Positions 4,461 through 35,675 of a DNA stretch of 64,000 bases are shown here, in pieces. The notes under the pieces were generated by a model. The model ran no database searches, was not told where the DNA came from, and saw only the letters and a list, made by a program, of their open reading frames with translations. The stretch spans positions 242 through 64,241 of the forward strand of contig JAFXAQ010000043.1 of assembly GCA_017516925.1 (NCBI GenBank), read 5' to 3'. The stretch's first letter is position 1; each line of letters opens with the position of its first letter. A program made the translations under genes and the position numbers. Source of the DNA: Oscillospiraceae bacterium. GTDB taxonomy: Bacteria; Bacillota; Clostridia; Oscillospirales; Oscillospiraceae.

Positions 4461-4888
4461 AATTTGAGAACTATATGACCCTGGAAATCCCCAGCAGGTC
4501 GTCAAACGAAGCTTTTGCCCGGTCTGCGGTTGCTTGTTTTGCTTCACAACTGGACCCCACGATGGAGGAGCTGGGGGATATCCGAACCGCTGTTTCTGAA
4601 GCAGTTACAAATTGCATTGTTCACGCATATCCGGACGGCTTGGGCATCATCACAATCCGGTGTCGCATTTTAAAGGATAATACTCTGGATGTTGTGATTA
4701 AGGACAAGGGTGTTGGCATAAAGGATATCCAGCAGGCAATGCAGCCAATGTTTACCACAGGCGGTTTTGACAGAAGCGGTATGGGCTTTACCATAATGGA
4801 AAGCTTTATGACAACGTTTTCTGTTACCTCGCAGCCGGGGAAAGGGACTTGTGTACATATGCGCAGAAAGCTGCAGCGACGCAAATGA
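4457..4888 (+). CDS. spoIIAB: anti-sigma F factor / serine kinase
   Basis: NEAFAR, AVSEAVTNCIVHAY, RSGMGFTIMESF motifs. Confidence 0.96.
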   Translation: MKFENYMTLEIPSRSSNEAFARSAVACFASQLDPTMEELGDIRTAVSEAVTNCIVHAYPDGLGIITIRCRILKDNTLDVVIKDKGVGIKDIQQAMQPMFTTGGFDRSGMGFTIMESFMTTFSVTSQPGKGTCVHMRRKLQRRK

Positions 4889-5589
4889 GCACAACAGAAG
4901 AACTGATTGCCTTATCCAAGGCAGGGGACAAGCAAGCGGGGGAACGGTTAGTAAAGGAAAATTCCGGCTTAATCTGGGCGGTCGCACGTCGGTTCTTGGG
5001 TCGTGGTACGGAGGCGGATGATTTATACCAGTTGGGCTGCCTTGGCTTCCTGAAAGCAATTGAGGGCTTTGATCCCGAATACGGAACCCAGTTTTCTACT
5101 TATGCTGTGCCGAAAATCTCCGGGGAGATACGTCGATTCTTGCGGGATGACGGCGCAGTTAAGGTTTCCCGGGGAATTAAGGAACGGGCGGCAACCATTA
5201 AAACTGTCAGAAACCAATTGCTCCAGGAGCTGGGACGTGAGCCGACGCTTCAGGAAATTGCTGAAAGAACGGACATTTCGCCGGAGGACATTGCCATTGC
5301 TGAGACAGCAACAGCAAGTGTGGAATCCATTCATCAGGAAACCGGAGATGACGGTTTTACGCTGGAAAATATTCTGACAGATACAGAAACCGAAGAAGCC
5401 ATACTTGAAAAAATTTCTCTTCGACAAGCGGTTGAAAAATTACCGGAACGGGAAAAAACAGTTATTAAATTACGCTATTACCACGGCTTAACCCAGGAAA
5501 GAGTCTCAAAGGTAATAAACGTCAGCCAGGTACAAGTGTCCAGAATCGAGAAGAGAGCACTCCTGCGAGTGAAGGAATACATACAATGA
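4885..5589 (+). CDS. sigF: sporulation sigma factor F
   Basis: DDLYQLGCLG, FSTYAVPKI, SQVQVSRIEK; third gene of spoIIA operon. Confidence 0.9.
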   Translation: MSTTEELIALSKAGDKQAGERLVKENSGLIWAVARRFLGRGTEADDLYQLGCLGFLKAIEGFDPEYGTQFSTYAVPKISGEIRRFLRDDGAVKVSRGIKERAATIKTVRNQLLQELGREPTLQEIAERTDISPEDIAIAETATASVESIHQETGDDGFTLENILTDTETEEAILEKISLRQAVEKLPEREKTVIKLRYYHGLTQERVSKVINVSQVQVSRIEKRALLRVKEYIQ

Positions 5590-5592
5590 TTT

Positions 5593-7446
5593 GTGTGTAA
5601 AAATGCCGTCCGTGCCTTCGTGGCACAAAGCCTGTCTGAAGGCTTTGGAGAAGGTATGACGACTGTTTCCAATTTGGTGGCGGATACTCTGATTATGGCA
5701 GACAAGTCTGAGCTGAACCGCACAATCGAGGCTTACAGGGAACAGTACCCGGATTGGTCAGAAGAAAAGCTCCGCAGTGAAGCCTGGAAGGATTTGGCAA
5801 TCCAGACCGGATGGGATGTTGTTGGCGGCACAGTACAAGGCATTTGCGGATTTCCTGGTAAAGAAATTCGGAGAGAGCAGGGCGCGAATATTGAGGCTAT
5901 GGTCGCTCAGCAGCTGGATGCTGCAGACGAGTTTGACAAAACAGTTCCGGAAAACCAAAGAATCCATATGACGGAGGCTATGGCATTTGAAGAAGTGGTG
6001 GCGGACGCCTGTCAGCGAATGCTTCTGGATACAGATGCCGGCAAGCGGCTGGCAGAATTTGGCGCCCAGAGCGAACAGAACCGCAGCTTCCTGAAGCGGT
6101 TTACAAAGTGGCTCCGGGAGCTGCTGGAGAACCTGCGGAATGCTTTTAAGGATGTTACTCCGGATTCCCTTGCCGCAAAAGAGTTTGCAAGGTTTGAAGA
6201 AAATGTAAAGCAGACCCTTGCGGATATGTTCGTGAAGATGAACATCGACGCCGGCGAAAAGCTCAGCACCATCAAAGAAGCAGGCCTGACAGAAAAAATC
6301 ACCACCGAAAACGGCAGCGTGAAATATAGCCTTAGCAAAAACGCCAAGAGTGAACTGCATAAAGCTTTATATGATACAAAATATAGAAATGATGTATTGC
6401 TCCGGGATGAAACACCGGCCATTATGCTTGCGCAAAAAGGCGTGAGAAACCTTCCAATGGCAATGAAGGCGTCTCACATTCGTGAAAATGTGTTCACGGA
6501 GCAAGAGGCAAAGAAACTTGGATTAAGGGTTGATACGCATACCCACTATCATGGAATTGGCGAAACACGTTTTTTGCAAATTATAGATGGGCTGGACAAT
6601 GTTAAAGAGGCTTATCGTGGTACGAGAAACGCGGACGATAGTATGAGGCGTGAAAACTACTTTTTGCTTGTATCGGAATTTACTGATGATAATGGTAATG
6701 TTGTAAATGTCCCAGTTTTTATTGATGAACATGGACAGTGCAACCGGGTGTTTATTGATACTAATAAAATATCAACAGTATTTGGCAGAGAAAATTTTCG
6801 CGAGTATATTGCTAGACAGGTGAAAAAAGGAAATCTAGTGAGAGTAAAAAACAAAAGCAATCTAGCCAGTGAACGCTCCGCACTAATCGCGGAGGGTTAT
6901 GGAAAGATTGCTTCTAAGGACAGTATACGCAACTCTGAGCAAAATGTCAACAAAAACTTGAAAGAGCCTGTTGGCAGTCCCAAAAAAATCCCTGTAAAGG
7001 AATATGCCGCAGACCGAGAAATGCTGGTAGATATGTTTGAGCAGATGGTTACAAACTCTACTGAGTACAAGGTTTTGCAGGACTATAAGAGCCATTTTTA
7101 TGAGCTGTCTGCTCTTGAAGAAACCGTGGAAAAACTGACTGCGGAAATTGATAAGTATTCTAATTCGGAGGGGATAAAATATCCAGCAAAGCTCAAACAG
7201 CTGAAGCTGGAGAGGCAACAGGCAATCAACCGGCTGAACTACTACGACGGCAAGCTACTGGGCTTGGAGAAGTCCGGTGTTCTGAAGGCAATGATTGAAC
7301 GCAGTCTGCTCAGTACCAAGGCATACTACAAGCAGCGGAACGAACGCCGGGAGGCGGATATTCGCCAGTACTACCGGGAAAGCCGCCGGAAGATTTTTTT
7401 CTTTACCTTTTGGAGAAAATGCGGTAAAATAACAGAAAGTATTTAG
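5593..7446 (+). CDS. hypothetical protein resembling a fragment of a phage/MGE large polyvalent protein (candidate MuF-C-like domain)
   Basis: 617-codon ORF, no clear RBS; EEVVAD helix, KYSL linker, SHI...HYHG segment and DSIRNSEQNVN linker are typical of polyvalent proteins; start uncertain. Confidence 0.55.
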   Translation: MCKNAVRAFVAQSLSEGFGEGMTTVSNLVADTLIMADKSELNRTIEAYREQYPDWSEEKLRSEAWKDLAIQTGWDVVGGTVQGICGFPGKEIRREQGANIEAMVAQQLDAADEFDKTVPENQRIHMTEAMAFEEVVADACQRMLLDTDAGKRLAEFGAQSEQNRSFLKRFTKWLRELLENLRNAFKDVTPDSLAAKEFARFEENVKQTLADMFVKMNIDAGEKLSTIKEAGLTEKITTENGSVKYSLSKNAKSELHKALYDTKYRNDVLLRDETPAIMLAQKGVRNLPMAMKASHIRENVFTEQEAKKLGLRVDTHTHYHGIGETRFLQIIDGLDNVKEAYRGTRNADDSMRRENYFLLVSEFTDDNGNVVNVPVFIDEHGQCNRVFIDTNKISTVFGRENFREYIARQVKKGNLVRVKNKSNLASERSALIAEGYGKIASKDSIRNSEQNVNKNLKEPVGSPKKIPVKEYAADREMLVDMFEQMVTNSTEYKVLQDYKSHFYELSALEETVEKLTAEIDKYSNSEGIKYPAKLKQLKLERQQAINRLNYYDGKLLGLEKSGVLKAMIERSLLSTKAYYKQRNERREADIRQYYRESRRKIFFFTFWRKCGKITESI

Positions 7447-7462
7447 ATAGACAGGTGTACTT

Positions 7463-9838
7463 ATGAATGATATGATGATTTCCCGTTTTATTTCTGCAAG
7501 AGGGCAATATATTGCAAGCCAATTTTCTTCACTGAATCCAATGCAGCAAAAGGCTGTTTTAACGACTGAGGGTCCATTGCTGCTTTTGGCGGGTGCCGGT
7601 AGTGGCAAAACCACTGTACTGATTAACCGTGTGGCAAACTTGCTGAAATACGGTCGAGGCAGCGATTCCAACGAGGTCCCGGATACTGTTACGGAAGATG
7701 ATGTTCTCTTTTTGGAAAACCTCTCTGAACCACTGCCGGATTTTGACCGCAGCCGGGCAGATTACCTCTGTGCATTGGAGCCACCGGCTCCCTGGAATGT
7801 GGTTGCCATTACCTTTACCAACAAAGCGGCAAATGAACTGAAAGAGCGTCTTGTGAATATGCTTGGACCGGGGGGGCAGGATGTCTGGGCAATGACATTT
7901 CACTCTGCTTGCTGCCGCATCTTGCGCAAGGATATTGAGCGCCTTGGTTATTCCCGCAGCTTTACCATATACGATTCCTCTGATTCTGAACGGCTGATGA
8001 AGGACATTATCAAGGAAATGGGCTTGGATGACAAAACATTTCCCGCCAAATATGTGCTGAGCATTATCAGCAGACAGAAGGACAATATGTGTTCACCGCA
8101 GGATATGGAAGACACAATGGAAGACGGTAATGATTATCGTTTGCGCCACGTTGTGAAGGCTTATAAGCTTTATCAAAAGCGGCTGAAAGAAAATAATGCC
8201 CTGGATTTTGATGACATTATCTTCAAAACTGTGGAGCTTTTGCAGCAAAATGAGGACATCCGCACCTATTATCAGAGAAAATTCCGCTACGTATTGGTAG
8301 ACGAGTATCAGGATACCAACCATATGCAGTATTTGCTTACGTCACTGCTGGCTGGTGGTTATGAAAACATCTGCGTTGTGGGTGACGATGACCAGAGTAT
8401 TTACCGGTTCCGTGGTGCAACCATTGAAAATATCCTGAGCTTTGAAAATCAATATCGAGGCTCGAAAATAATTCGCCTGGAGCAGAATTATCGCTCCACC
8501 CAAGCTATTTTAAATGCAGCAAATTCCGTGATTGCCCATAATTTGGGACGGAAGGGCAAGCGCCTTTGGACCTCCAACGATGCCGGCGAACCAATCACTG
8601 TTTATGAAGCTGCAGACGAAACCCAGGAAGCGAATTTTGTTTCCGGACAGATTTTGTCTTCCTCCAAGGGTAAGAATTTCAAGGATTATGCAATTTTGTA
8701 CCGTACTAACGCACAATCCAACGCATTGGAATTTTCTTTGAAGCGTAACGGAATTCCTTACCGTGTTTTTGGCGGCATGCGTTTCTTTGACCGGGCTGAG
8801 GTTAAGGATATGCTGTCTTATTTGTGTGTCATCAATAACCGCAATGACGATTTGCGTTTGCACCGCATCATCAATAATCCTCCCAGAGGTCTCGGCGCAA
8901 AGGCCATTGAGACTGCGGACAGGTTGGCAAATGCAGAGGGAATGGGGCTGTATCACGTGATTTCTGACCCATATTCTTATGCGCCCTTGGAAAAGTCCGC
9001 AAAGAAATTCCGTGCTTTTACGGATATGCTGGACGAATTTGACCGTATGCTGGACAGTGGCATGGGGTTGCCGGAATTTTATGACGCAGTTATGGATAGA
9101 ACCGGATATGCTATGATGCTGGAGTTGAAGCCCACAGAAGAAAATAAGACAAGACTTGAAAATATCAAGGAATTGAAATCCAGCATTATTTCCTATGTGC
9201 AAAATGCAGAAACACCCACCCTGGCTGGATTTTTAGAAGAAATTGCTCTTTATACGGATTTGGAGCAATATAACGCAGGGGATGATGCAGTTGTTATGAT
9301 GACGATGCACGCAGCTAAAGGTCTGGAGTTCCCGCAAGTATTTCTTGTGGGCTTTGAAGAAGGCCTGTTTCCCGGTATGCGGGCAATTGGTGAAGCAGAA
9401 GAGATGGAGGAAGAACGGCGGCTTTGTTATGTGGCGATTACCCGTGCAAAGAAAAAACTGACCATCTCCTATGCCAAGCAGCGTATGCTTTACGGTCGCA
9501 CCAACGCATCATTGCCTTCCAGATTTTTATCTGAAATTCCGTCTGATATCGTGGAGAAAAAAGGCGATGTGTTCACACCACGGGCAAGCTACAATGCTTA
9601 TCAAAGTCCAAGACCTACAACCTCCTACTATAAATCTGAGGTTATCAAGGCTGCGCCTACAGCAAGCTTTCTTGAATTAAGCAAGGGAGATATGGTTCTT
9701 CACAGTGCCTTTGGAAAAGGAATGGTGCTCTCGGTTATGAAAATGGGCGGCGATGCCCTTTGGGAGATTGCCTTTGACCGGATTGGTACAAAAAAACTGA
9801 TGGCAAAAACAGCGTCGGTGCAAATCAAAAAGCTGTAA
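7463..9838 (+). CDS. pcrA: ATP-dependent DNA helicase PcrA/UvrD
   Basis: AGAGSGKT, FTNKAA, VDEYQDTN, VGDDDQSIY, HAAKGLEF, EERRLCYVAITRA. Confidence 0.97.
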   Translation: MNDMMISRFISARGQYIASQFSSLNPMQQKAVLTTEGPLLLLAGAGSGKTTVLINRVANLLKYGRGSDSNEVPDTVTEDDVLFLENLSEPLPDFDRSRADYLCALEPPAPWNVVAITFTNKAANELKERLVNMLGPGGQDVWAMTFHSACCRILRKDIERLGYSRSFTIYDSSDSERLMKDIIKEMGLDDKTFPAKYVLSIISRQKDNMCSPQDMEDTMEDGNDYRLRHVVKAYKLYQKRLKENNALDFDDIIFKTVELLQQNEDIRTYYQRKFRYVLVDEYQDTNHMQYLLTSLLAGGYENICVVGDDDQSIYRFRGATIENILSFENQYRGSKIIRLEQNYRSTQAILNAANSVIAHNLGRKGKRLWTSNDAGEPITVYEAADETQEANFVSGQILSSSKGKNFKDYAILYRTNAQSNALEFSLKRNGIPYRVFGGMRFFDRAEVKDMLSYLCVINNRNDDLRLHRIINNPPRGLGAKAIETADRLANAEGMGLYHVISDPYSYAPLEKSAKKFRAFTDMLDEFDRMLDSGMGLPEFYDAVMDRTGYAMMLELKPTEENKTRLENIKELKSSIISYVQNAETPTLAGFLEEIALYTDLEQYNAGDDAVVMMTMHAAKGLEFPQVFLVGFEEGLFPGMRAIGEAEEMEEERRLCYVAITRAKKKLTISYAKQRMLYGRTNASLPSRFLSEIPSDIVEKKGDVFTPRASYNAYQSPRPTTSYYKSEVIKAAPTASFLELSKGDMVLHSAFGKGMVLSVMKMGGDALWEIAFDRIGTKKLMAKTASVQIKKL

Positions 9839-9881
9839 ATTTCTTTCTTAAAACGCATACATATATCCTGGGAGGGATTGT

Positions 9882-12480
<2,599 letters not shown>

Positions 12481-28081: not shown

Positions 28082-28966
28082 ATGTTGGATTTAATTCGGG
28101 CCTACGAAAATTATCTTTCGAAGGTAAAACAGGCATCATCCAACACAATCATCTCGTACATACGCGATATTCGTCAGTTTTCGCAGTGGCTGTATCGAAC
28201 CGAGGGGTTGGACGTGATTGATGCGCAACAACTGAATATTTCCAATTTCCTCGGCTATCTGGAGGAGCAGGGACGGACAGGTGCGACAATTTCCAGAACC
28301 CTTGCCAGTCTTAAGAATTTTTATGCTTATGTAGTTTCGTCCGGCTTTCTGGAGAAAACACCTGTAACGGATATCCATATTGACAGGGGAGAGAAGAAGC
28401 TTCCGCAGGTGCTTACCGGACGCGAGATTGAGCTGCTTCTTGCGCAGCCTGTTTGTGTTGATGCAAAGGGATATCGAGACAAGGCAATGCTGGAGCTTAT
28501 GTATGCTACAGGTATTCGTGTCAGCGAACTAATTGAGCTGGACATCGGCGATGTTAATCTGGAGCAGGGTATTATTAAGTGCAACAGTGACAAGAAGACG
28601 AGAATCATACCGCTTTATCCGGCAGCGCTTAAGGCGTTAAGCGCATATATAAAGGATGTTCGACGCGGGATGCTTGCTACAGCAGATGAGCAGGCCTTGT
28701 TTGTGAATATTAATGGTGTGCGAATGAGCCGTCAGGGCTTCTGGAAAATCCTGAAATATTACCAGCAGTCTGCGCACATTGATAAGGAAATCACGCCGCA
28801 CACGCTGCGACACAGCTTTGCTGTACACCTCCTGGAAAATGGTGCCGACTTAGGCTCTCTGCAGGAATTGATGGGGCACAGAGATATTTCTTCCACGCAA
28901 ATGTACACCCATCTTATAAATCAAAAAATTAAATCTGTATATGAAAAATGCCACCCTAAGGCATAA
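28082..28966 (+). CDS. xerD: tyrosine recombinase XerD/RipX-like
   Basis: RDKAMLELMYATGIRVSEL, SRQGFWK, HTLRHSFAVH, MGH, TQMY. Confidence 0.88.
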   Translation: MLDLIRAYENYLSKVKQASSNTIISYIRDIRQFSQWLYRTEGLDVIDAQQLNISNFLGYLEEQGRTGATISRTLASLKNFYAYVVSSGFLEKTPVTDIHIDRGEKKLPQVLTGREIELLLAQPVCVDAKGYRDKAMLELMYATGIRVSELIELDIGDVNLEQGIIKCNSDKKTRIIPLYPAALKALSAYIKDVRRGMLATADEQALFVNINGVRMSRQGFWKILKYYQQSAHIDKEITPHTLRHSFAVHLLENGADLGSLQELMGHRDISSTQMYTHLINQKIKSVYEKCHPKA

Positions 28967-29005: not shown

Positions 29006-29977
29006 TTAAATTCCGGTCATGGCCGCCAGGACATCAACCTCGATTGGCTGAATTCCCCGAGCCATAGCCAAACCCTCCTGAATGTCAACATCACGGAAGC
29101 TGCCATCCTTTGTGCAGATAATCCGGTTCGTCTTTCCGTTAATCAGCATTTCAACGGCCAGATATCCCATCTTGGTTGCATTGACACGGTCTCGTCCGGT
29201 AGGGCAACCGCCACGTTGAATATGCCCCAGAACGGTAACCCGGGGGTCCAGGTCTACGGCGTCTTTAATTTTCGCTGCGATGTCAGCGGCAGAGCCGGCG
29301 CCTTCAGCAACCACAATCATATAATGCGTAAAGCCGTTCATTCTTGCCTGGCGGATTTTTTCCACCACATCTTCTTCAAAATCGATTTCCTTTTCGGGCA
29401 CCAGTACAGCCGTTGCGCCGACAGCCAAGCCAACATACATTGCTAAGTAACCGGCATTTCTACCCATTACCTCAACAACAGAGCAGCGCTCATGGGATTG
29501 CATTGTGTCTCTGAGCTTGTCAATGCATTCTATTGCTGTGTTTGCTGCGGTATCAAAGCCGATGGAATAGTTGGTACAGCAAATATCGTTGTCAATCGTA
29601 GCGGGAATACAAATGACATTGATACCAAATTTGGATAGGGCAGCCGCGCCACGAAAAGTGCCATCGCCACCGATGGCAACAATTCCGTCTAAACCAAGAA
29701 ATTTGCAAGTAGATGCAGCCCGTTGCTGACCTTCCTCGGTTAAGAATTCTTTACTTCTGGCGGTGTACAGAATTGTGCCGCCACGGTTAATAATGTGACT
29801 GATATTTTTCTCGTCCAGCCTAAGTACATCTCCGGTAATCAAACCATTGTATCCGCGCCGGATACCGTAGCACTCGATACCATGATACAGTGCGGTACGC
29901 ACAACAGAACGTACACAAGGGTTCATGCCGGGGGAGTCACCACCACTTGTTAAAACACCAATTCGACGAACAGACAT
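29006..29977 (-). CDS. pfkA: 6-phosphofructokinase
   Basis: TSGGDSPGMN, GGDGT, TIDND, EVMGR, LGHIQRGG. Confidence 0.97.
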   Translation of the reverse strand: MSVRRIGVLTSGGDSPGMNPCVRSVVRTALYHGIECYGIRRGYNGLITGDVLRLDEKNISHIINRGGTILYTARSKEFLTEEGQQRAASTCKFLGLDGIVAIGGDGTFRGAAALSKFGINVICIPATIDNDICCTNYSIGFDTAANTAIECIDKLRDTMQSHERCSVVEVMGRNAGYLAMYVGLAVGATAVLVPEKEIDFEEDVVEKIRQARMNGFTHYMIVVAEGAGSAADIAAKIKDAVDLDPRVTVLGHIQRGGCPTGRDRVNATKMGYLAVEMLINGKTNRIICTKDGSFRDVDIQEGLAMARGIQPIEVDVLAAMTGI

Positions 29978-30096
29978 AAGAAAGCCTCCAAAAATTATTT
30001 TCTTTTTATATTTTAATGCCTCGATTGGGAATTGTAAAGTGTTATTCACACGAATAATGTGGAAACATTCAATTATAACAACACATCCTGCACGCA

Positions 30097-30126
30097 AACG
30101 TAGCAAAACCATTATTTTGTTGCCGA
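30097..30126. other. dif-like site a / left attachment junction
   Basis: AACGTAGCAAAA-CCATTA-TTTTGTTGCCGA; contains the 17-bp direct repeat CAAAACCATTATTTTGT also at 33708-33724. Confidence 0.7.
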
Positions 30127-30200
30127 GCCAATCTGCCGAGGGGTAGAAGGCTTGGAAAGTTCACTCGGCAAACCTGCCGATTTTTTCTTTGAACAAAACG

Positions 30201-30233
30201 AACGCAACAAAATGACAGAGGTTTTGTTGCGTT
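30201..30233. repeat. dif-like palindrome b
   Basis: AACGCAACAAAA-TGACAGAGG-TTTTGTTGCGTT, perfect 12-bp arms, 9-nt spacer. Confidence 0.8.
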
Positions 30234-30291
30234 AGTGGGTGTTCACAATAAAGCGGGACGGATATGACGAATATCAACCGTCCCGAGGCAT

Positions 30292-30385
30292 AAAAAAACC
30301 CTCGGGATTTCTCCCGAGGGTTTCTAGCTGGCCTTTGGACACCCGCCAGGGTGGAGCGCTTGCGCGCCCAGGCAAACAGCCCCGC
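30292..30385 (-). ncRNA. candidate ~95-nt structured small RNA
   Basis: TTGACA-17-TAGAAT promoter at 30420-30392 (minus strand) and terminator AAACCCTCGGGA-GAAA-TCCCGAGGGTTTTTTT; no RBS-led ORF between them. Confidence 0.55.
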
Positions 30386-30416
30386 ACAACTATTCTAGCG
30401 CAAATGTTCGGAAATG

Positions 30417-30716
30417 TCAAGCGGGATTATCCCGCTTGCTTTCCACGCGCTGCAGCTCGTCAATGAGGGCATCCGGTACTTCAAAAATGAAATCCTCCGG
30501 CTTTTTCCGGACATTCGGAAAACCGCCGGGCGTGCCTTCAAATTCGGCAAATACCTCACGGGTGACCAAATCAACGATTACGCAGGCTTTTGTTTTCGTG
30601 GTGCTTTGCAAAGCCCACAGCTGAAGCAGGGCGCATCCTAATGCGGTCATTGATGTGTCGATTTTTCCGGTTTTCTTACTAAAGCGGACAAGTCCAAATC
30701 TGTGCATGTCGTTCAT
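30417..30716 (-). CDS. hypothetical 99-aa protein of the element
   Basis: GAAAGGAG RBS 10 nt before ATG; globular composition; no recognised family. Confidence 0.7.
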   Translation of the reverse strand: MNDMHRFGLVRFSKKTGKIDTSMTALGCALLQLWALQSTTKTKACVIVDLVTREVFAEFEGTPGGFPNVRKKPEDFIFEVPDALIDELQRVESKRDNPA

Positions 30717-30759
30717 ATTTTGCACGCTCCTTTCTGCCTTGCGGCGTTGACCAATGAGC

Positions 30760-31950
30760 CGGGGAAGTCAAGGCCGCACCATCTTGCCCTTGCTTTATGC
30801 CAGGGCAAGACGGTGCGCCGTCAGGCTTGGCCTTGACCCCCGGATACAATGGGAAGACGCAGGCAGAACACAGACGGCACCAAACTCCGGGGGGGCCGCC
30901 CGCGCAGCGGGTGGGGGCCGCAGCCCCTGTGAAACAGCCCCGCGCTTCCACGGAGCCCCCAGCGGGGGCGGCGGGGACGGGAGGGGCGCAGGGGAGAACG
31001 CCGCCCAGACGGCCGCAGCAGCGCCCACAGAAGCGCTGCGAGCGTGCACGCAGCGCAACAAGAGCTCGGGGGCGGGCGAAAAAAAGCGGGGCTTGCCCCG
31101 CTACGCCCCCGAGCAAGGAGCAGGACACCCCCGAAGCCCACAGGGGCTGGGCAGGGGGGACCCGCCGACAGACGGACTGACCACAGGCGAGCCCGCACGC
31201 AGCAAGGGCAACCGAATAGGGAGCCCGCAGCGCAGAAAGGGCAAGCCAAGGTCACCGGCTGGAGCGAGAGGGGTTCGAGGGCGACGCAGGAGCCCGCAGA
31301 AAATCCCCCGAGCTCTCAAGGCGGGGGGCTGCCCAGAGGGGTGTCGAGGGCTGAAAGCCCGAGCGCAAAGCGCCTGCGGGGCGCTGGGGCTTTTGCGGAC
31401 GCATTCTGCGAGGCAATGCCGAAGCAGAATAAGTGCGGACGCAAAATGCCCCATAAAGGCAGCGAAGCTGCCAAGCGCCAAATACATTCGGGGTTTGGGC
31501 GGTCGCCCAACCAAAGCAAGGCTTGTGGGTGCTGCTTGCGGGCGAAGCTACCGCATTCGCCCGCAAGCAGAGTAAGCCCACGGCTGCCTTGCTTTGGTGC
31601 TATGCACTCTCGATAGCCCACCATAGCTTGGCTGCGGAGTATCTGCAGCCAAGCTATGGTGGTGCGGGCTGACGCACTTGGAAACTGCAACAGGCTACCG
31701 ACTACTGCTTGAGGTATCTACGCGGTATCACTATTTAGCGTCTGCGTTTTTGGTGCGTAGCACCAAAAACACTGACGCCCGATACGCAGAGCATTTGCCC
31801 GCGGAGAATGTGCGGGCAAATGCGACCGCATTTGCGCTGCCGCTGCTGCGAAGGCGGCGTAGCTGCCGCCGCGCAGCGGCAGCGTAGCGAGCTTGCGAGC
31901 GCCCGCTTAAGCGGGCTGCGAAGCAGCGAGCGTAGCGAAGCGAAGCGTTT
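30760..31950. other. GC-rich multi-hairpin non-coding region (candidate single-strand origin / packaging region)
   Basis: many inverted repeats, e.g. 18-bp perfect arms at 31618-31662, also 31790-31823, 31834-31883, 31900-31916; TAGCGA motifs near 31885 and 31933. Confidence 0.55.
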
Positions 31951-31951
31951 T

Positions 31952-31976
31952 GGGGTGCACCCCTATACTTGATATT
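31952..31976 (+). other. candidate double-strand origin (rolling-circle nick site)
   Basis: GGGGTGCACCCC palindrome followed by ACTTGATATT, matching the phiX174/pC194-type CTTG^ATA nick motif, 35 nt before rep. Confidence 0.65.
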
Positions 31977-32010
31977 CGGACATTATTCCTTCACAGCGGG
32001 AATGTGAATA

Positions 32011-32775
32011 ATGGCAAAATCCAAAAATGAGTTGTTCCACAACTCGAAAATTTACGTATACCCCAATGGCTTACAAGATATCGTTGTCAGCACGTCTGCA
32101 GATTTCCACCCGCCAGGGTGGGAGGTTGCTGACGATTGGGGGCAACGCAAAATGCCCCTTGAAAAGGGGGTTCGCAAGGTTGCAGACCCCGCTTTTGAGG
32201 ATATGCAACGCTCAATGCGTCGAGCTCGGGGTAAACTGCGTCGGCTTGCTTTAGCAAACGACTTTCGTTGGTTTGTGACTTTAACGCTTGACCCTCAGAA
32301 GGTTGACAGTCACGACGGCAAAGCCGTTGTGCAAAAGCTGAATAGCTGGTGCTCTAATATGGTCCAAAGAAACGGACTGAAATATATTCTTGTTCCGGAA
32401 CGGCACAAGAAAGGTGGTATCCATTTCCACGGCTTTTTCAACGATGTTGTGGAGTTTTCCGACAGCGGACATACCGACAGCCAAGGTCATAAAATTTTCA
32501 ATCTTCCTCAGTGGACACTGGGTTTCACTACGGCTATCGAATTATACGACGATTATCATAAGGCTGTCGGGTATGTCTGCAAGTATGTCGGAAAACAAGG
32601 GGAAAAACCTGCGGGCAGATGGTATTATTCAGGCGGTGGTTTGAATGAACCAAAGGTCATTTATGCTGACTTGGATTTTCAAGACTTTGTCGCAGAAAAT
32701 CAGGGGAAATGCTTTGAATTCGAGGTACCCGGCAAACGGCTTGCCGTTATAAATGGATACACAGAAAGTACTTGA
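32011..32775 (+). CDS. HUH rolling-circle replication initiator (inovirus/plasmid-like Rep)
   Basis: motif I FVTLT, motif II IHFHG, motif III YVCKY; SMRRAR upstream helix. Confidence 0.88.
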   Translation: MAKSKNELFHNSKIYVYPNGLQDIVVSTSADFHPPGWEVADDWGQRKMPLEKGVRKVADPAFEDMQRSMRRARGKLRRLALANDFRWFVTLTLDPQKVDSHDGKAVVQKLNSWCSNMVQRNGLKYILVPERHKKGGIHFHGFFNDVVEFSDSGHTDSQGHKIFNLPQWTLGFTTAIELYDDYHKAVGYVCKYVGKQGEKPAGRWYYSGGGLNEPKVIYADLDFQDFVAENQGKCFEFEVPGKRLAVINGYTEST

Positions 32776-32803
32776 GCAAGTACAAATGAAAGGGGGTGTT
32801 GCT

Positions 32804-32953
32804 ATGCTTTATGGTCGTTTTGTGGTCCTGATTGATTTGTGTATTAAACTGCTGAATATGGTCAAAAGGGAAGTTATGAAGGAGCAAGCTGAATTGCTTG
32901 CGGTGTTCGCTGAAAATAACGACGCGGGGGAAGATGTCGAAGATGTGGATTGA
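32804..32953 (+). CDS. small hypothetical protein (49 aa, acidic tail)
   Basis: AAAGGGGGTG RBS before ATG at 32804, directly after rep. Confidence 0.5.
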   Translation: MLYGRFVVLIDLCIKLLNMVKREVMKEQAELLAVFAENNDAGEDVEDVD

Positions 32954-32968
32954 CATTTTTCGGAAAGT

Positions 32969-33015
32969 AAAATCCCGGAAAATCCCCGCGTAAGCGGTGG
33001 GTTTTCCGGGATTTT
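32969..33015 (+). terminator. strong hairpin between rep operon and recombinase
   Basis: AAAATCCCGGAAAATCCC...GGGTTTTCCGGGATTTT. Confidence 0.55.
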
Positions 33016-33051
33016 CGGGAAAAACGTTCTTACAGAAAAGAGGGGGAACAA

Positions 33052-33588
33052 GTGAAAACGGAATATCTTATGGATAGGGAAATGGAGTTGGTGCTTTCCG
33101 CACTTATGCCTGAAAATCGCCTGATTATGCGCCTTTGCATGCATACAGGGCTTCGGGTGGGTGACGCGCTGTGCATTACCACTCAGCAACTGGAACATAG
33201 GCGGTTTTCGGTGTTGGAGCATAAGACAGGGAAACGTAAAACCATAACACTACCAGATACCCTGCTTAGCGATTTACGCGAACAGGGTAGGGGAAGTGTG
33301 TTCGTTTTCCCGCATAGGTCAAAGCCTGACCAGCATAGAACGCGTCAGGCTGTCTGGGCTGATGTGAAGAGGGCAGTTAAGGCGTTCCGCCTTAACGTGA
33401 ACGCTGGAACACATTCAGCCCGTAAGGCTTTCGCGGTTGACCTTATGCGGAAATATGGTGACATTGAACGCGTAAAAAATGCCCTCAACCATTCTAGCGT
33501 TGAGGTCACGTTGCTTTATGCTATGGCTGACGCGCTCCGGAATGAACGGCACAAAGTGCCGAGAAAAAGACGGAGCAAGTCAGGCTAA
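33052..33588 (+). CDS. small tyrosine recombinase (catalytic domain only)
   Basis: TGLRVGD, KTGK, HSARK, LNH, terminal Y: full R-K-H-R-H-Y set in 178 aa; GAGGGGG RBS, GTG start. Confidence 0.88.
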   Translation: MKTEYLMDREMELVLSALMPENRLIMRLCMHTGLRVGDALCITTQQLEHRRFSVLEHKTGKRKTITLPDTLLSDLREQGRGSVFVFPHRSKPDQHRTRQAVWADVKRAVKAFRLNVNAGTHSARKAFAVDLMRKYGDIERVKNALNHSSVEVTLLYAMADALRNERHKVPRKRRSKSG

Positions 33589-33613
33589 GCCGGGGCTGAA
33601 AATCAACTCGGAA

Positions 33614-33642
33614 TTGACAAAGCGTTCGGGCGGGTGTATACT
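33614..33642 (+). promoter_or_regulatory. sigma-A consensus promoter at right end of the element
   Basis: TTGACA-17 nt-TATACT. Confidence 0.7.
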
Positions 33643-33699
33643 GACAGTGACACTTACGAAAGGAGCACCGCAGAAGTCCCGCCAAACCTTACGACCACA

Positions 33700-33729
33700 A
33701 ACGCCAACAAAACCATTATTTTGTGGGTC
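33700..33729. other. dif-like site c / right attachment junction
   Basis: AACGCCAACAAAA-CCATTA-TTTTGTGGGTC, same 6-nt spacer as site a. Confidence 0.7.
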
Positions 33730-33788
33730 GGGAAGACCCGTATGCGTTCATTGGCTGAACTCAGCCAATGATTTATTTTGAAGACAAT

Positions 33789-33820
33789 GAACGCAACAAA
33801 ATAAAAATTTTGTTGCGTTC
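33789..33820. repeat. dif-like palindrome d
   Basis: GAACGCAACAAAA-TAAAAA-TTTTGTTGCGTTC, perfect 13-bp arms, 6-nt spacer. Confidence 0.8.
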
Positions 33821-33841
33821 GTTGTAAAGATGTGTTATACT
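33813..33841 (+). promoter_or_regulatory. sigma-A promoter overlapping palindrome d, facing the xer gene
   Basis: TTGCGT-17 nt-TATACT with extended TGn. Confidence 0.55.
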
Positions 33842-33858
33842 ATCAATAACAAGGACGT

Positions 33859-34644
33859 TTAGAACAATTCGTCTAATAAAATATAATAATGTATTAGTTC
33901 CCAGTCCGGTTTTATGCCCAGAGCATCAAAAAGCATCTCGTCCTTAAATCCGGGATATTTCTTTCCATCATATACGCCATTATAATTATTAGACAAGCTT
34001 CTGTATACCAGTGCAATATCTTGCCACCGATCCGCTGTACCGGACCGGCCAAGGTCAATTAAACCTGTAAGTCCTTTGTTATTTAGAAATATATTTGGAA
34101 GGCAAAAATCTCCGTGTGAGATGACTGCTGTTTCTTCCGGCTTGTTAACAATTAGCCAATTAAGTAATTCTTCGGGATTTTTAAAGCCGTTTTGACCGAA
34201 TGTATCCGGTTGTGCATCCTCAATGCTGACATTACCTGAAATTACATTATCTTCAGCGTGGCGCAGTCGTTTATCCAACGACCAGCTGCATGGACAATCC
34301 TCCGTTGGAATGCTCCACAATTTATGTAACGACTCAGCAAGTAATTCTACCTGTTTTACCGGATTAGACATATATTTTTGATCGCAGCTCATAATGCCTT
34401 CGCATTTTGTCATTAGAATATATGAACACTCGTTTTCGATAGTATGTTCGATTATGTTCGGCACTGGGATTTTGCCTTTTAACCATTGCAGCATCTGAAT
34501 TTCGTTGTCTGCTTCAATGGAAACTGGCTGAATCTTCAGAACCACACTATCGAACAAATATACTCCTGCGTCAGATTTTCCAATTCTATCCGTTTGGAAG
34601 TCATTTTGTTTTATAAATTGTTCAAATATCTTAGGAAAATACAT
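33859..34644 (-). CDS. aminoglycoside phosphotransferase, APH(3') family
   Basis: IGKS..VY, HGDFCLPN, IDLGRSG.ADRWQDIAL, YYILLDELF C-terminus; AT-rich. Confidence 0.88.
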   Translation of the reverse strand: MYFPKIFEQFIKQNDFQTDRIGKSDAGVYLFDSVVLKIQPVSIEADNEIQMLQWLKGKIPVPNIIEHTIENECSYILMTKCEGIMSCDQKYMSNPVKQVELLAESLHKLWSIPTEDCPCSWSLDKRLRHAEDNVISGNVSIEDAQPDTFGQNGFKNPEELLNWLIVNKPEETAVISHGDFCLPNIFLNNKGLTGLIDLGRSGTADRWQDIALVYRSLSNNYNGVYDGKKYPGFKDEMLFDALGIKPDWELIHYYILLDELF

Positions 34645-34673
34645 TGTAAATCACCATTTTGGAGGTATTTTTT

Positions 34674-35675
34674 ATGCAAAAATATTCAGATTGTCCTATG
34701 GTTTTGCGTGATTTTTTGGTCTACCATGAAACAATTAAGGGTCAATCACCGCAAACCATACATGAGTATTATTTAGATTTGAGGATGTTTTTTCGTTTTA
34801 TAAAGCTTATGCAGAATGATATGCCAATTCAAACAAAATTAGAGGACATTCCCATAAAGGACGTTGATATTGCGTTCGTTAAAGGCATCACAACATCGGA
34901 TATATTTGATTTTTTATTATATCTTGCAAATGACAGAGTTGTTGATGCAGATAAACCATATGCGGAAAAGGGTGTCTCCCCTACTACCCGCGCTCGAAAA
35001 CTTTCAGCGCTAAAATCCTTTTATAAATACTTAACTGTTCGAACCAAGCAGCTGGAAGAAAACCCGGTTGCAGACTTGGAGTATCCAAAATTAAGAAAAA
35101 GCTTGCCCAAATATCTGACATTGGAACAATCTTCCAAATTATTACAAGCTGTTTCTGGTCAAAATCAGGCGCGGGACTATGCAATTTTGATGCTTTTTCT
35201 CAATTGTGGGATTCGCAGAAGCGAATTGGTTGGTTTGAATATGACCGATGTGTATGAGGATAGAATTCGTGTTGTCGGTAAGGGCAATAAAGAACGTATT
35301 GTTTACTTTGGCGCCTCTTGCAGAAAAGCCATTGACGCATATTTAGCAGAACGAAACAAGCTGGTCCTGACAGACAATCGTGCATTGTTTGGTTCACGGA
35401 ACGGTAATAGGATCAGTGTTGATGCTGTTCACGCATTGGTGAAAAAAGCATTTTTGAAGGCGGGCTTGGACGCAACGCAATTTTCTGCGCATAAACTGCG
35501 CCATACGGCAGCAACTATGATGCTATCAGGCGGTGTGGATGTAAAAACCGTACAGGAAGTTCTTGGTCACGAGAACTTAAATACTACACAGATTTATACC
35601 CATATCGAAAACACTGAGCTTAAAATCGCAGCTGAAGCCAATCCCCTATCTAAGCTGGATTTTTCTGAGGAATAA
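34674..35675 (+). CDS. tyrosine recombinase XerC/XerS-like
   Basis: RARKLSALKSFYKYL, RDYAIL..CGIRRSEL, GKGNKER, HKLRHTAAT, LGH, TQIYTH; GGAGG RBS. Confidence 0.9.
   Translation: MQKYSDCPMVLRDFLVYHETIKGQSPQTIHEYYLDLRMFFRFIKLMQNDMPIQTKLEDIPIKDVDIAFVKGITTSDIFDFLLYLANDRVVDADKPYAEKGVSPTTRARKLSALKSFYKYLTVRTKQLEENPVADLEYPKLRKSLPKYLTLEQSSKLLQAVSGQNQARDYAILMLFLNCGIRRSELVGLNMTDVYEDRIRVVGKGNKERIVYFGASCRKAIDAYLAERNKLVLTDNRALFGSRNGNRISVDAVHALVKKAFLKAGLDATQFSAHKLRHTAATMMLSGGVDVKTVQEVLGHENLNTTQIYTHIENTELKIAAEANPLSKLDFSEE

What the first reader, a model, noticed from the sequence alone, without database searches (positions are those of the whole stretch)
30097..30233. Reconstituted attP folds like the CTXphi single-stranded attachment hairpin
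Seen: circularising at the repeat gives site 1 = AACGCCAACAAAA-CCATTA-TTTTGTTGCCG. About 75 nt downstream is site b, whose reverse complement is AACGCAACAAAA-CCTCTGTCA-TTTTGTTGCGTT. On one strand both arms can pair, leaving a 6-versus-9-nt central bulge paired only at the CC next to one arm and the last A. The loop has its own stem (TGCCGAG 30134-30140 / CTCGGCA 30164-30170). Established: CTXphi attP(+) is formed by two inverted dif-like sites ~90 nt apart, with a mismatched overlap region that allows a single strand exchange and makes integration irreversible. Inference: the same ssDNA-hairpin integration logic on a different dif sequence; the a-b...c layout is what such an event would leave.
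Basis: partly seen in the sequence, partly recalled or inferred. Interest (0 to 1): 0.8.

Follow-up and report, generated by a model that had tools for sequence, protein, structure and literature searches.

The report
Cholera-phage-style integration in gut Clostridia
A family of small rolling-circle DNA elements and a filamentous prophage of gut Clostridia sit at a conserved palindrome near the chromosome's replication terminus and likely insert there as folded single strands using the host's Xer enzyme, a trick so far described mainly for the cholera-toxin phage and its kin.

Summary
The host site is not a/c but a fourth site, d (33790-33819): a palindrome near the GC-skew switch, found upstream of the Xer gene in 21 of 21 same-genus relatives. 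The 3,589-bp element (HUH Rep, nick-site motif, 178-aa catalytic-domain tyrosine recombinase) runs 30213-33801. Its attP is site c + loop + site b; a plus its loop is a scar of an earlier element. 35 of 37 chromosomal junctions lack 'a'. Natural attPs fold cross-paired (41 of 50), with strong compensatory pairing (189/252 versus about 119 shuffled). Site 2 fits the host centre only at the loop-proximal end, and 30 of 32 insertions follow that homology. An integrase-free inovirus uses the same layout, and the arms track each host family's palindrome. Best reading: a CTXphi-type single-strand exchange by the host Xer at a difSL-like site, but cut on the loop-proximal side, the reverse of CTXphi. 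Catalysis is untested, and the element's own recombinase is unexplained. My ten paper searches found no such system for Clostridia. The scan noted a similar hairpin on an unrelated IS91 element (e1-9805175).

The parts
30097..30125 (+). Site a: site-1 remnant of an earlier element (scar); centre 30109-30114 identical to site c
   Evidence: scar-only chromosomes (site 1-loop-d, no rep/int) in G009, G151, G214, G296, G351, G401
30126..30200 (+). Scar loop, with terminator-like hairpin 30165-30180
   Evidence: 85% identical to the loop of the element-free scar in G214/L221, its only foreign hit
30201..30233 (+). Site b = left junction: arm 30201-30212, element 9-nt centre 30213-30221, element outer arm 30222-30233 (attP site 2)
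30235..30238 (+). Outer-stem extension that pairs with 33695-33698 in the circle
   Evidence: P 0.91-0.98; covariation of this flank in 63 elements
30213..33801 (+). Integrated element, 3,589 bp (first T shared, so ends can be shifted by one base)
   Evidence: 14-bp b/d repeat ending 30213/33802; comparative layout
30417..30725 (-). 102-aa ORF, no family match
30750..31950 (.). GC-rich (63%) hairpin-rich non-coding region; likely single-strand origin (inferred)
   Evidence: similar DNA in many homologous elements
31966..31982 (+). Predicted rolling-circle nick site (TACTTGATA ... GGACA), defining the + strand as the displaced strand
   Evidence: CTTGA[TC]A on the rep strand in 64 of 65 rep-upstream regions (not de-duplicated by genome), on the opposite strand in 1; CTTGATA is the pC194/phiX174-type nick motif (PMC10378824)
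32011..32775 (+). HUH rolling-circle Rep, 254 aa
   Evidence: Pfam PF23343 E 1.5e-15; PHROG 3419
32753..32953 (+). 66-aa ORF, no family match
33052..33588 (+). 178-aa tyrosine recombinase, catalytic domain only, R35-K58-H121-R124-H147-Y156 invariant
   Evidence: PF00589 E 5e-21, no SAM/core-binding domain; alignment of 17; best PDB match 5DOR integrase domain
33614..33642 (+). Sigma-70-like promoter firing across site 1 into the loop
   Evidence: 11 of 12 consensus matches; promoter-like in 47 of 48 natural attPs, controls 0 of 48 and 0 of 45
33700..33729 (+). Site c = attP site 1 (outer arm 33700-33712, 6-nt centre 33713-33718, inner arm 33719-33729)
33730..33789 (+). The element's own attP loop, with terminator-like hairpin 33748-33771
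   Evidence: 95% identical to the loop behind int in the G171 element
33790..33819 (+). Site d: regenerated host dif-like palindrome (12-bp arms, centre 33802-33807); its right arm overlaps a predicted -35 box
   Evidence: 21 of 21 same-genus xer loci; skew maximum 35,566
34674..35675 (+). Host Xer-family recombinase, 333 aa, linked to d; candidate catalyst
   Evidence: below the curated cut-offs for both XerC and XerS

Best explanation
This is a 3.6-kb rolling-circle element that likely integrates as a folded single strand into the host's predicted dif site by one strand exchange, most likely catalysed by the host Xer encoded next to that site. Steps: (1) Rep is predicted to nick the + strand at 31966-31974 and release a single-stranded circle (motif shown, nicking inferred). 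(2) On that strand site 1 (c) and site 2 (arm + 9-nt centre + arm of b) pair into a stem that mimics the palindromic host site, with an asymmetric 6-versus-9 bulge (fold predicted; covariation shown). (3) The recombinase cuts site 2 and the host top strand at the loop-proximal arm/centre border (position shown by junctions). The host's freed TAA pairs with the last three bases of site 1; the element's freed T-purine-A pairs with the host bottom strand (A:T or G:T at the middle base). (4) The far end of the bulge is paired within the hairpin but never matches the host, so a second exchange is likely blocked and replication fixes the insertion (inferred from CTXphi). The product is b...element...c-loop-d with dif regenerated, so arrays can build up. 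The duplex prophage has no compatible pair of sites unless an older site-1 scar such as 'a' lies upstream. The element's own small recombinase is most likely used for another job (multimer resolution or excision) rather than for recognising dif.
For: Host site: d in 21 of 21 same-genus xer loci, similar AAAA-N6-TTTT palindromes in 6 of 8 other-family loci; single copy; near skew switch. Junction: 35 of 37 left junctions begin at b with no site 1; tandem arrays c-loop-b (L097/98, L160/197). Natural attP: 19 of 79 pattern hits are terminally repeated 3-4-kb contigs; 41 of 50 selected attPs cross-pair on + (36 on -); the b/d circle of this element cross-pairs at P 0.86-1.0 on + and 0.75-1.0 on - in three context lengths. 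Covariation: flank positions 2-5 Watson-Crick 189 of 252 vs partner shuffles mean 119, max 144; collapsed to 37 haplotypes 102 of 148 vs mean 58.5, max 78; slid controls 46-61 vs 146; far-end dinucleotides complementary in 62 of 63, in four types. Cut-side homology: site 2 base 2 is a purine in 63 of 63 and base 3 is A in 62 of 63, neither fixed by my search pattern; 30 of 32 right junctions read TAAA[A/G]A in element orientation, including two hosts where the site is flipped relative to neighbouring genes. Strand: nick motif is on the strand the junction requires. Host catalyst: an 8.35-kb inovirus-like prophage (pI/Zot-family ATPase, CRESS-type Rep; L171) has the same layout and fold and no tyrosine recombinase; arms change with the host palindrome in other genera and families; 3 of 7 deposited circles with the small recombinase show no hairpin.
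Against: No biochemistry. That d is a true dimer-resolution site is inferred; it also overlaps a predicted promoter of the xer gene and could be an operator too. The host also encodes a XerD-like protein (28082-28966), so a single-enzyme system is not shown. The element's recombinase keeps all catalytic residues and sits beside attP in every small element. Only one integrase-free family was seen. 9 of 50 natural attPs do not favour the cross-paired fold on +; 2 of 32 insertions are in the orientation with only one base of homology. No circle of this particular copy was seen in Logan contigs, which fits irreversibility but gives no direct junction. Circular contigs could include collapsed tandem arrays. 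Related elements are not independent, so shuffle counts overstate significance.
Confidence: 0.68

Rival explanations
1. Same folded single-strand substrate and same crossover, but the element's catalytic-domain-only recombinase is needed: it catalyses the exchange itself or pairs with host Xer in a mixed complex.
For: Six catalytic residues invariant in 17 aligned homologues; int lies directly upstream of site 1 in all complete small elements; the host site is symmetric, so a second enzyme could impose the one-sided cut.
Against: No core-binding domain; an integrase-free inovirus has the same attP and junctions; 3 of 7 deposited circles carry the enzyme without a detectable hairpin; arms follow the host site across families.
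Confidence: 0.22
2. One reading: exchange at the loop-distal (CC) side as in CTXphi, or duplex a x c recombination, so the element runs a to c and its attP carries the 30126-30200 loop.
For: Exact 17-bp a/c repeat and a well-folded a/c join; in 2 of 37 other junctions a site 1 also precedes b; duplex a x c recombination could still excise this copy.
Against: Empty hosts lack any site 1; 35 of 37 junctions lack 'a'; loop a matches an element-free scar while loop c matches element loops; the CC end never matches the host centre.
Confidence: 0.05
3. Ordinary duplex attP x dif recombination at site 2; site 1 is only an accessory or regulatory binding site and the fold is incidental.
For: Both sites are palindromes that can fold alone; a promoter-terminator unit spans site 1, so RNA-level pairing might contribute; another inovirus at this locus (L069) seems to have a single site.
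Against: Site 2 has a 9-nt (elsewhere 7-12-nt) centre against a 6-nt host centre; compensatory pairing links sequences upstream of site 1 with sequences downstream of site 2, beyond the predicted terminator, and across the bulge.
Confidence: 0.05

Closest known systems
CTXphi-type IMEX (CTXphi, RS1; attP(+) at dif1/dif2 with XerC/XerD)
   Same: Two inverted dif-like sites 33-106 nt apart that fold on the + strand; one normal and one over-long centre; homology to dif on one side only; new dif regenerated; tandem arrays (PMC4246890, PMC3442271, passages read).
   Different: Host site is a symmetric palindrome beside one Xer gene, not XerC/XerD arms. In CTXphi the new dif stands alone and attP1+attP2 flank the other end (PMC3442271 Fig. 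1 legend); here the lone site is site 2 and the new dif abuts the loop, i.e. the cut is loop-proximal (my inference from the layouts). Both orientations occur. The small elements encode their own tyrosine recombinase and no virion genes. Host is Clostridia, not gamma-proteobacteria.
XerS/difSL (streptococci, lactococci) and XerH/difH single-recombinase systems
   Same: Site immediately upstream of the recombinase gene at the terminus; inner arms AAAA / TTTT as in difSL (PMC1914069, PMC5357621, passages).
   Different: Perfectly symmetric 12-bp arms with a 6-bp centre; the protein scores below the XerS cut-off (159 vs 267 bits) and the XerC cut-off (239 vs 335); a XerD-like gene is also present.
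LME-1 with XerL/dif of Legionellales
   Same: A mobile element mimics and reveals an atypical single-recombinase dif (PMC9765430, abstract and section 9).
   Different: LME-1 uses one short duplex att identical to dif and excises at about 1%; no folded two-site attP is described in the parts read.
Rat-caecum cryptic circles pRGI00836, pRGI00891, pRGI00952, pRGI01058 (HG796380, HG796394, HG796404, HG796421)
   Same: Deposited circular members with the small recombinase and, as shown here, the same cross-paired hairpin with other arm sequences.
   Different: Deposited without product names; the source paper (PMC3913684, passages) counts integrase domains and has no occurrence of 'hairpin' in its main text.
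Integron attC / IntI
   Same: Recombination of a folded single strand with a duplex site, resolved by replication (recalled).
   Different: The 178-aa enzyme has no room for the IntI-specific insertion and scores far below integron-integrase cut-offs; there are no cassette arrays.

Membership tests
CTXphi-type IMEX | Inserts at the chromosome dimer-resolution site | tested here: inconclusive
   d is single-copy, conserved, terminus-proximal and Xer-linked, but dimer resolution at d was not tested.
CTXphi-type IMEX | attP made of two inverted dif-like sites that fold on one strand | tested here: met
CTXphi-type IMEX | Overlap homology to dif on one side only; duplex sites incompatible | tested here: met
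   T-purine-A start of site 2 and TTA-like end of site 1 match the host; far end does not
CTXphi-type IMEX | Single-stranded circular stage of the integrating strand | tested here: met
   HUH Rep and strand-specific nick motif; ssDNA itself not observed
CTXphi-type IMEX | Encodes no recombinase of its own | tested here: not met
   178-aa tyrosine recombinase at 33052-33588; met by the inovirus in L171
CTXphi-type IMEX | XerC catalysis with XerD structural, at asymmetric XerC/XerD arms; new dif alone at one end | tested here: not met
   Arms are symmetric and the regenerated site abuts the loop; enzyme roles not testable
CTXphi-type IMEX | Host Xer catalyses one strand exchange; replication resolves; irreversible | not testable with these tools
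   Indirect only: no circle in laid contigs
XerS/difSL | Site immediately upstream of the recombinase gene near the terminus | tested here: met
   (here an aph gene lies between them)
XerS/difSL | Protein belongs to the XerS family | tested here: not met
   NF003462 159 bits, cut-off 267
XerS/difSL | One recombinase is sufficient | not testable with these tools
   Symmetric arms suggest it; a XerD-like gene is also present
Inoviridae prophage | pI (Zot-family) ATPase and small coat proteins | tested here: not met
   None in the element; no PF05707 match in this 84%-complete assembly

The most novel reading that the evidence does not exclude
Gut Clostridia have an undescribed symmetric, single-Xer dif that at least two unrelated classes of single-stranded elements enter by an independently evolved, mirror-image version of the CTXphi hairpin, and the small elements add a catalytic-domain-only recombinase that works with the host Xer to break the site's symmetry or to excise through site-1 scars, while a conserved promoter across site 1 helps expose the folding strand.
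Probability: 0.25. Interest if true: 0.88.

Novelty: new variant of a known kind. Interest (0 to 1): 0.74.

Why it matters
Folded single-strand integration through Xer has been a Vibrio/gamma-proteobacterial story built on two different recombinases. Here the same logic appears in another phylum, on a symmetric site probably served by one enzyme, with the opposite cutting geometry, so it is likely convergent. It names a candidate dif for Oscillospirales, explains a large family of 'cryptic' 2-4-kb gut circles (1,706 Rep and 3,840 recombinase relatives at E<=0.001, though how many carry this attP was not counted), and gives dozens of natural compensatory variants that make the rules of single-strand Xer recombination directly testable with short oligonucleotides. 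It may also offer a site-specific integration tool for poorly tractable gut commensals.

Tried and rejected
Viral-contig scans with Rep, Int and the site-b pattern found nothing useful; Int had no match in the phage collection. Rfam: no match in 29900-34700. Logan contigs of 7 runs showed no circular junction of this copy; in X1 and X2 one contig runs unbroken from 30970 (X1) or the edge of the laid stretch to 33805, and depth over the element equals the flanks; contigs drop rare forms, so this is not proof of absence. One search's joined folds lacked one base and were redone. One search crashed. One search folded L248 and L255 in the wrong orientation (redone; L255 has withheld bases and was not used for a fold). 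One search was a mis-specified alignment and is ignored. A short recalled pattern for a canonical XerC/XerD-type dif found nothing in the 84%-complete assembly, which is weak. Rejected: the claimed loop stem; a/c as host site; the idea that 'a' came from a cut at the CC side (scar arms and flanks are element-type and scar left ends vary). L094 was dropped from the junction count (palindromic centre, other side of pfk). Ten paper searches showed no report of a dif or hairpin IMEX for Oscillospirales/Clostridia in their listings; the library lacks most subscription papers and I opened no supplements. Das et al. 2010 (homology rules, wobble pairs) was not available, so that point is recalled. No structure or complex prediction was run.

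Full report
Setting. The window spans a replication terminus: cumulative GC skew plateaus from about 28.7 kb and peaks at 35,566. Named records with the same locus are labelled Faecousia sp. or Oscillospiraceae. Between a phosphofructokinase-like gene (name from its sequence, my reading) and a 333-aa Xer-family gene (34674) lie four sites that share arms: a (30097), b (30201, 9-nt centre), c (33700) and d (33790, perfect 12-bp arms around a 6-bp centre). Between b and c are an HUH Rep (PF23343) and a 178-aa tyrosine recombinase with only the catalytic domain.

Observation. The loop stem it names does not form (P<=0.01). It overlooked d.

Which site is the host's. Of 24 same-genus genomes searched, 21 gave an xer locus, and all 21 carry d within 1.5 kb upstream; 6 of 8 loci from other families carry their own AAAA-N6-TTTT palindrome. 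In 9 of the 21, pfk lies directly beside d with no site 1. The exact arm occurs only at b and d in this assembly. A site directly upstream of its recombinase gene at the terminus, with AAAA/TTTT inner arms, is the difSL arrangement (PMC1914069, PMC5357621; passages read). The protein is not XerS by the curated cut-off, and a XerD-like gene is also present, so 'single-Xer dif' is an inference.

Where the crossover is. Rep homologues were found in 17 of 151 genus genomes. Complete elements read b, rep, int, c, loop, d. Among 126 loci from the two site-b scans, 85 distinct junctions had a marker gene upstream: 47 had int (43 with site 1 detected), and 38 had a host gene; dropping one odd case, 35 of 37 had no site 1 before b. 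So the element begins after b's left arm and ends at d's left arm (30213-33801), and its attP is c + loop + b. That circle cross-pairs at P 0.86-1.0 on the + strand in 140-, 320- and 520-nt contexts. 'a' plus loop is a scar: element-free chromosomes with site 1-loop-d occur in at least six genomes among the 29 of 401 with the exact site-1 core; loop a is 85% identical to one such scar, whereas loop c is 95% identical to an element's loop. Scar left ends vary and one keeps the end of int, so they look like decay products.

Natural attPs. I picked the 50 with int and/or site 1 upstream: 41 cross-pair on the + strand and 36 on the - strand. In 63 elements with distinct flanks (natural attPs plus integrated copies), site 2's centre is 9 nt (fixed by my pattern), site 1's is 6 nt in 60, and the two far-end bases are complementary in 62 (CC/GG 57, CG/CG 2, GC/GC 2, CA/TG 1). 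Flank positions 2-5 outside the arms are Watson-Crick in 189 of 252 cells against 119 (max 144) in 10,000 partner shuffles, and 102 of 148 against 58.5 (max 78) after collapsing to 37 haplotypes; slid registers give 46-61 against 146. Kinship inflates such counts, but all four pair types occur at positions 3-5. In integrated copies these partners are 3-8 kb apart, so the pairing only makes sense on a circular single strand.

Mechanism at the cut. Tyrosine recombinases cut between arm and centre and the freed 5' ends must pair beside the cut (PMC4246890, passages). The junctions require a cut in site 2 on the + strand at the loop-proximal border. The host's freed TAA meets the TTA end of site 1 (last base A in 58 of 63), and the element's freed end is T-purine (63 of 63)-A (62 of 63), which pairs with the host bottom strand by A:T or G:T (tolerance of wobble pairs in CTXphi is recalled, not read). 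The far end never matches the host. Thirty of 32 right junctions show the host centre in the orientation that gives this 3-bp match, including two hosts where the site is flipped relative to its neighbours; 2 show the other orientation. A pC194/phiX174-type nick motif lies on the + strand before rep in 64 of 65 regions (PMC10378824, passage), the strand the junction requires.

Which enzyme. An 8.35-kb inovirus-like prophage (pI/Zot-family ATPase, small coat-like ORFs, CRESS-type Rep) in L171 has the same b...site 1-loop-d layout and fold and no tyrosine recombinase by Pfam on 13 ORFs or by a six-frame profile search. In other genera and families (11 of 401 order genomes had the small recombinase) the element arms change with the local palindrome. 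Of 7 deposited circles with the enzyme, 4 have the hairpin and 3 do not by my scans. This favours host Xer. Against it, the small enzyme keeps R-K-H-R-H-Y in all 17 aligned sequences and always sits beside attP in the small elements.

Comparison. It works like CTXphi: two inverted sites, one over-long centre, one-sided homology, regenerated dif, arrays (PMC4246890, PMC3442271, passages; bioRxiv 10.64898/2026.06.12.731946, first fifth read). It is not a member in the strict sense: symmetric site, own recombinase, and the new dif abuts the loop, whereas in CTXphi it stands alone opposite attP1+attP2 (PMC3442271 Fig. 1 legend). LME-1/XerL is the nearest single-recombinase precedent but uses a duplex att (PMC9765430, abstract and one section). 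The Enterocloster inovirus preprint has no occurrence of 'Xer' or 'dif' in its main text. PMC3025954 and PMC8138268 were read as passages only and gave no Oscillospirales site. PMC7072734 was read as passages for the pC194 origin. Ten searches showed no report of this system; supplements were not opened. An earlier scan note (e1-9805175) describes a CTX-like hairpin on an IS91-plus-recombinase element in another genome; I did not check it and it is not support.

Verdict. Observation partly confirmed; interpretation right in kind, wrong in geometry. New variant of a known kind, interest 0.74. Folded single-strand integration at d: about 0.9; host Xer as sufficient catalyst given that: about 0.75.

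Noticed in passing
window 33859-34644 (-): Intact APH(3')-family aminoglycoside phosphotransferase gene (NF033068 above cut-off) between the dif-like site and xer, outside the element; a broken homologue sits at the same place in G256 (L218). The d-xer gap varies from about 50 to 885 nt among relatives.
   Followed up: partly
window 33614-33642 and 33748-33771: A sigma-70-like promoter before site 1 (47 of 48 natural attPs) and a hairpin plus T-tract before site 2 (T-tract in 34 of 48) predict a short transcript across site 1 whose non-template strand is the integrating strand; role unknown.
   Followed up: partly
window 33811-33841: The right arm of d supplies a TTGCGT -35 box with an extended -10 17 nt downstream in most relatives, so Xer bound at d may repress its own gene.
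   Followed up: no
L069 (G114) 4741-10872; also L216, L070: A second inovirus-like prophage at the same site, with genes on the opposite strand, an 8-nt-centre left site, a roughly 55-nt direct repeat and no evident site 1; possibly a single-site (VGJphi-like) route.
   Followed up: partly
L171 / L179 / L112 family: Integrase-free inovirus with a CRESS-type Rep-helicase and an 868-aa NlpC/P60 protein, seen in many gut metagenome contigs.
   Followed up: partly
pfk-to-b interval in relatives: Length ranges from 160 nt to 9.6 kb, suggesting a graveyard of older insertions left of dif; L173, L203 and L185 have site 1-loop followed by degenerate sites and further DNA before d.
   Followed up: no
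window 28082-28966: XerD/RipX-like recombinase only 5 kb from the dif-like site; whether it partners the 34674 enzyme is open.
   Followed up: no
L154, L156, L161, L183, L187, L193, L198: Free-circle-sized contigs of this family are binned into Akkermansia and Paludibacteraceae genome records, most likely binning errors.
   Followed up: no
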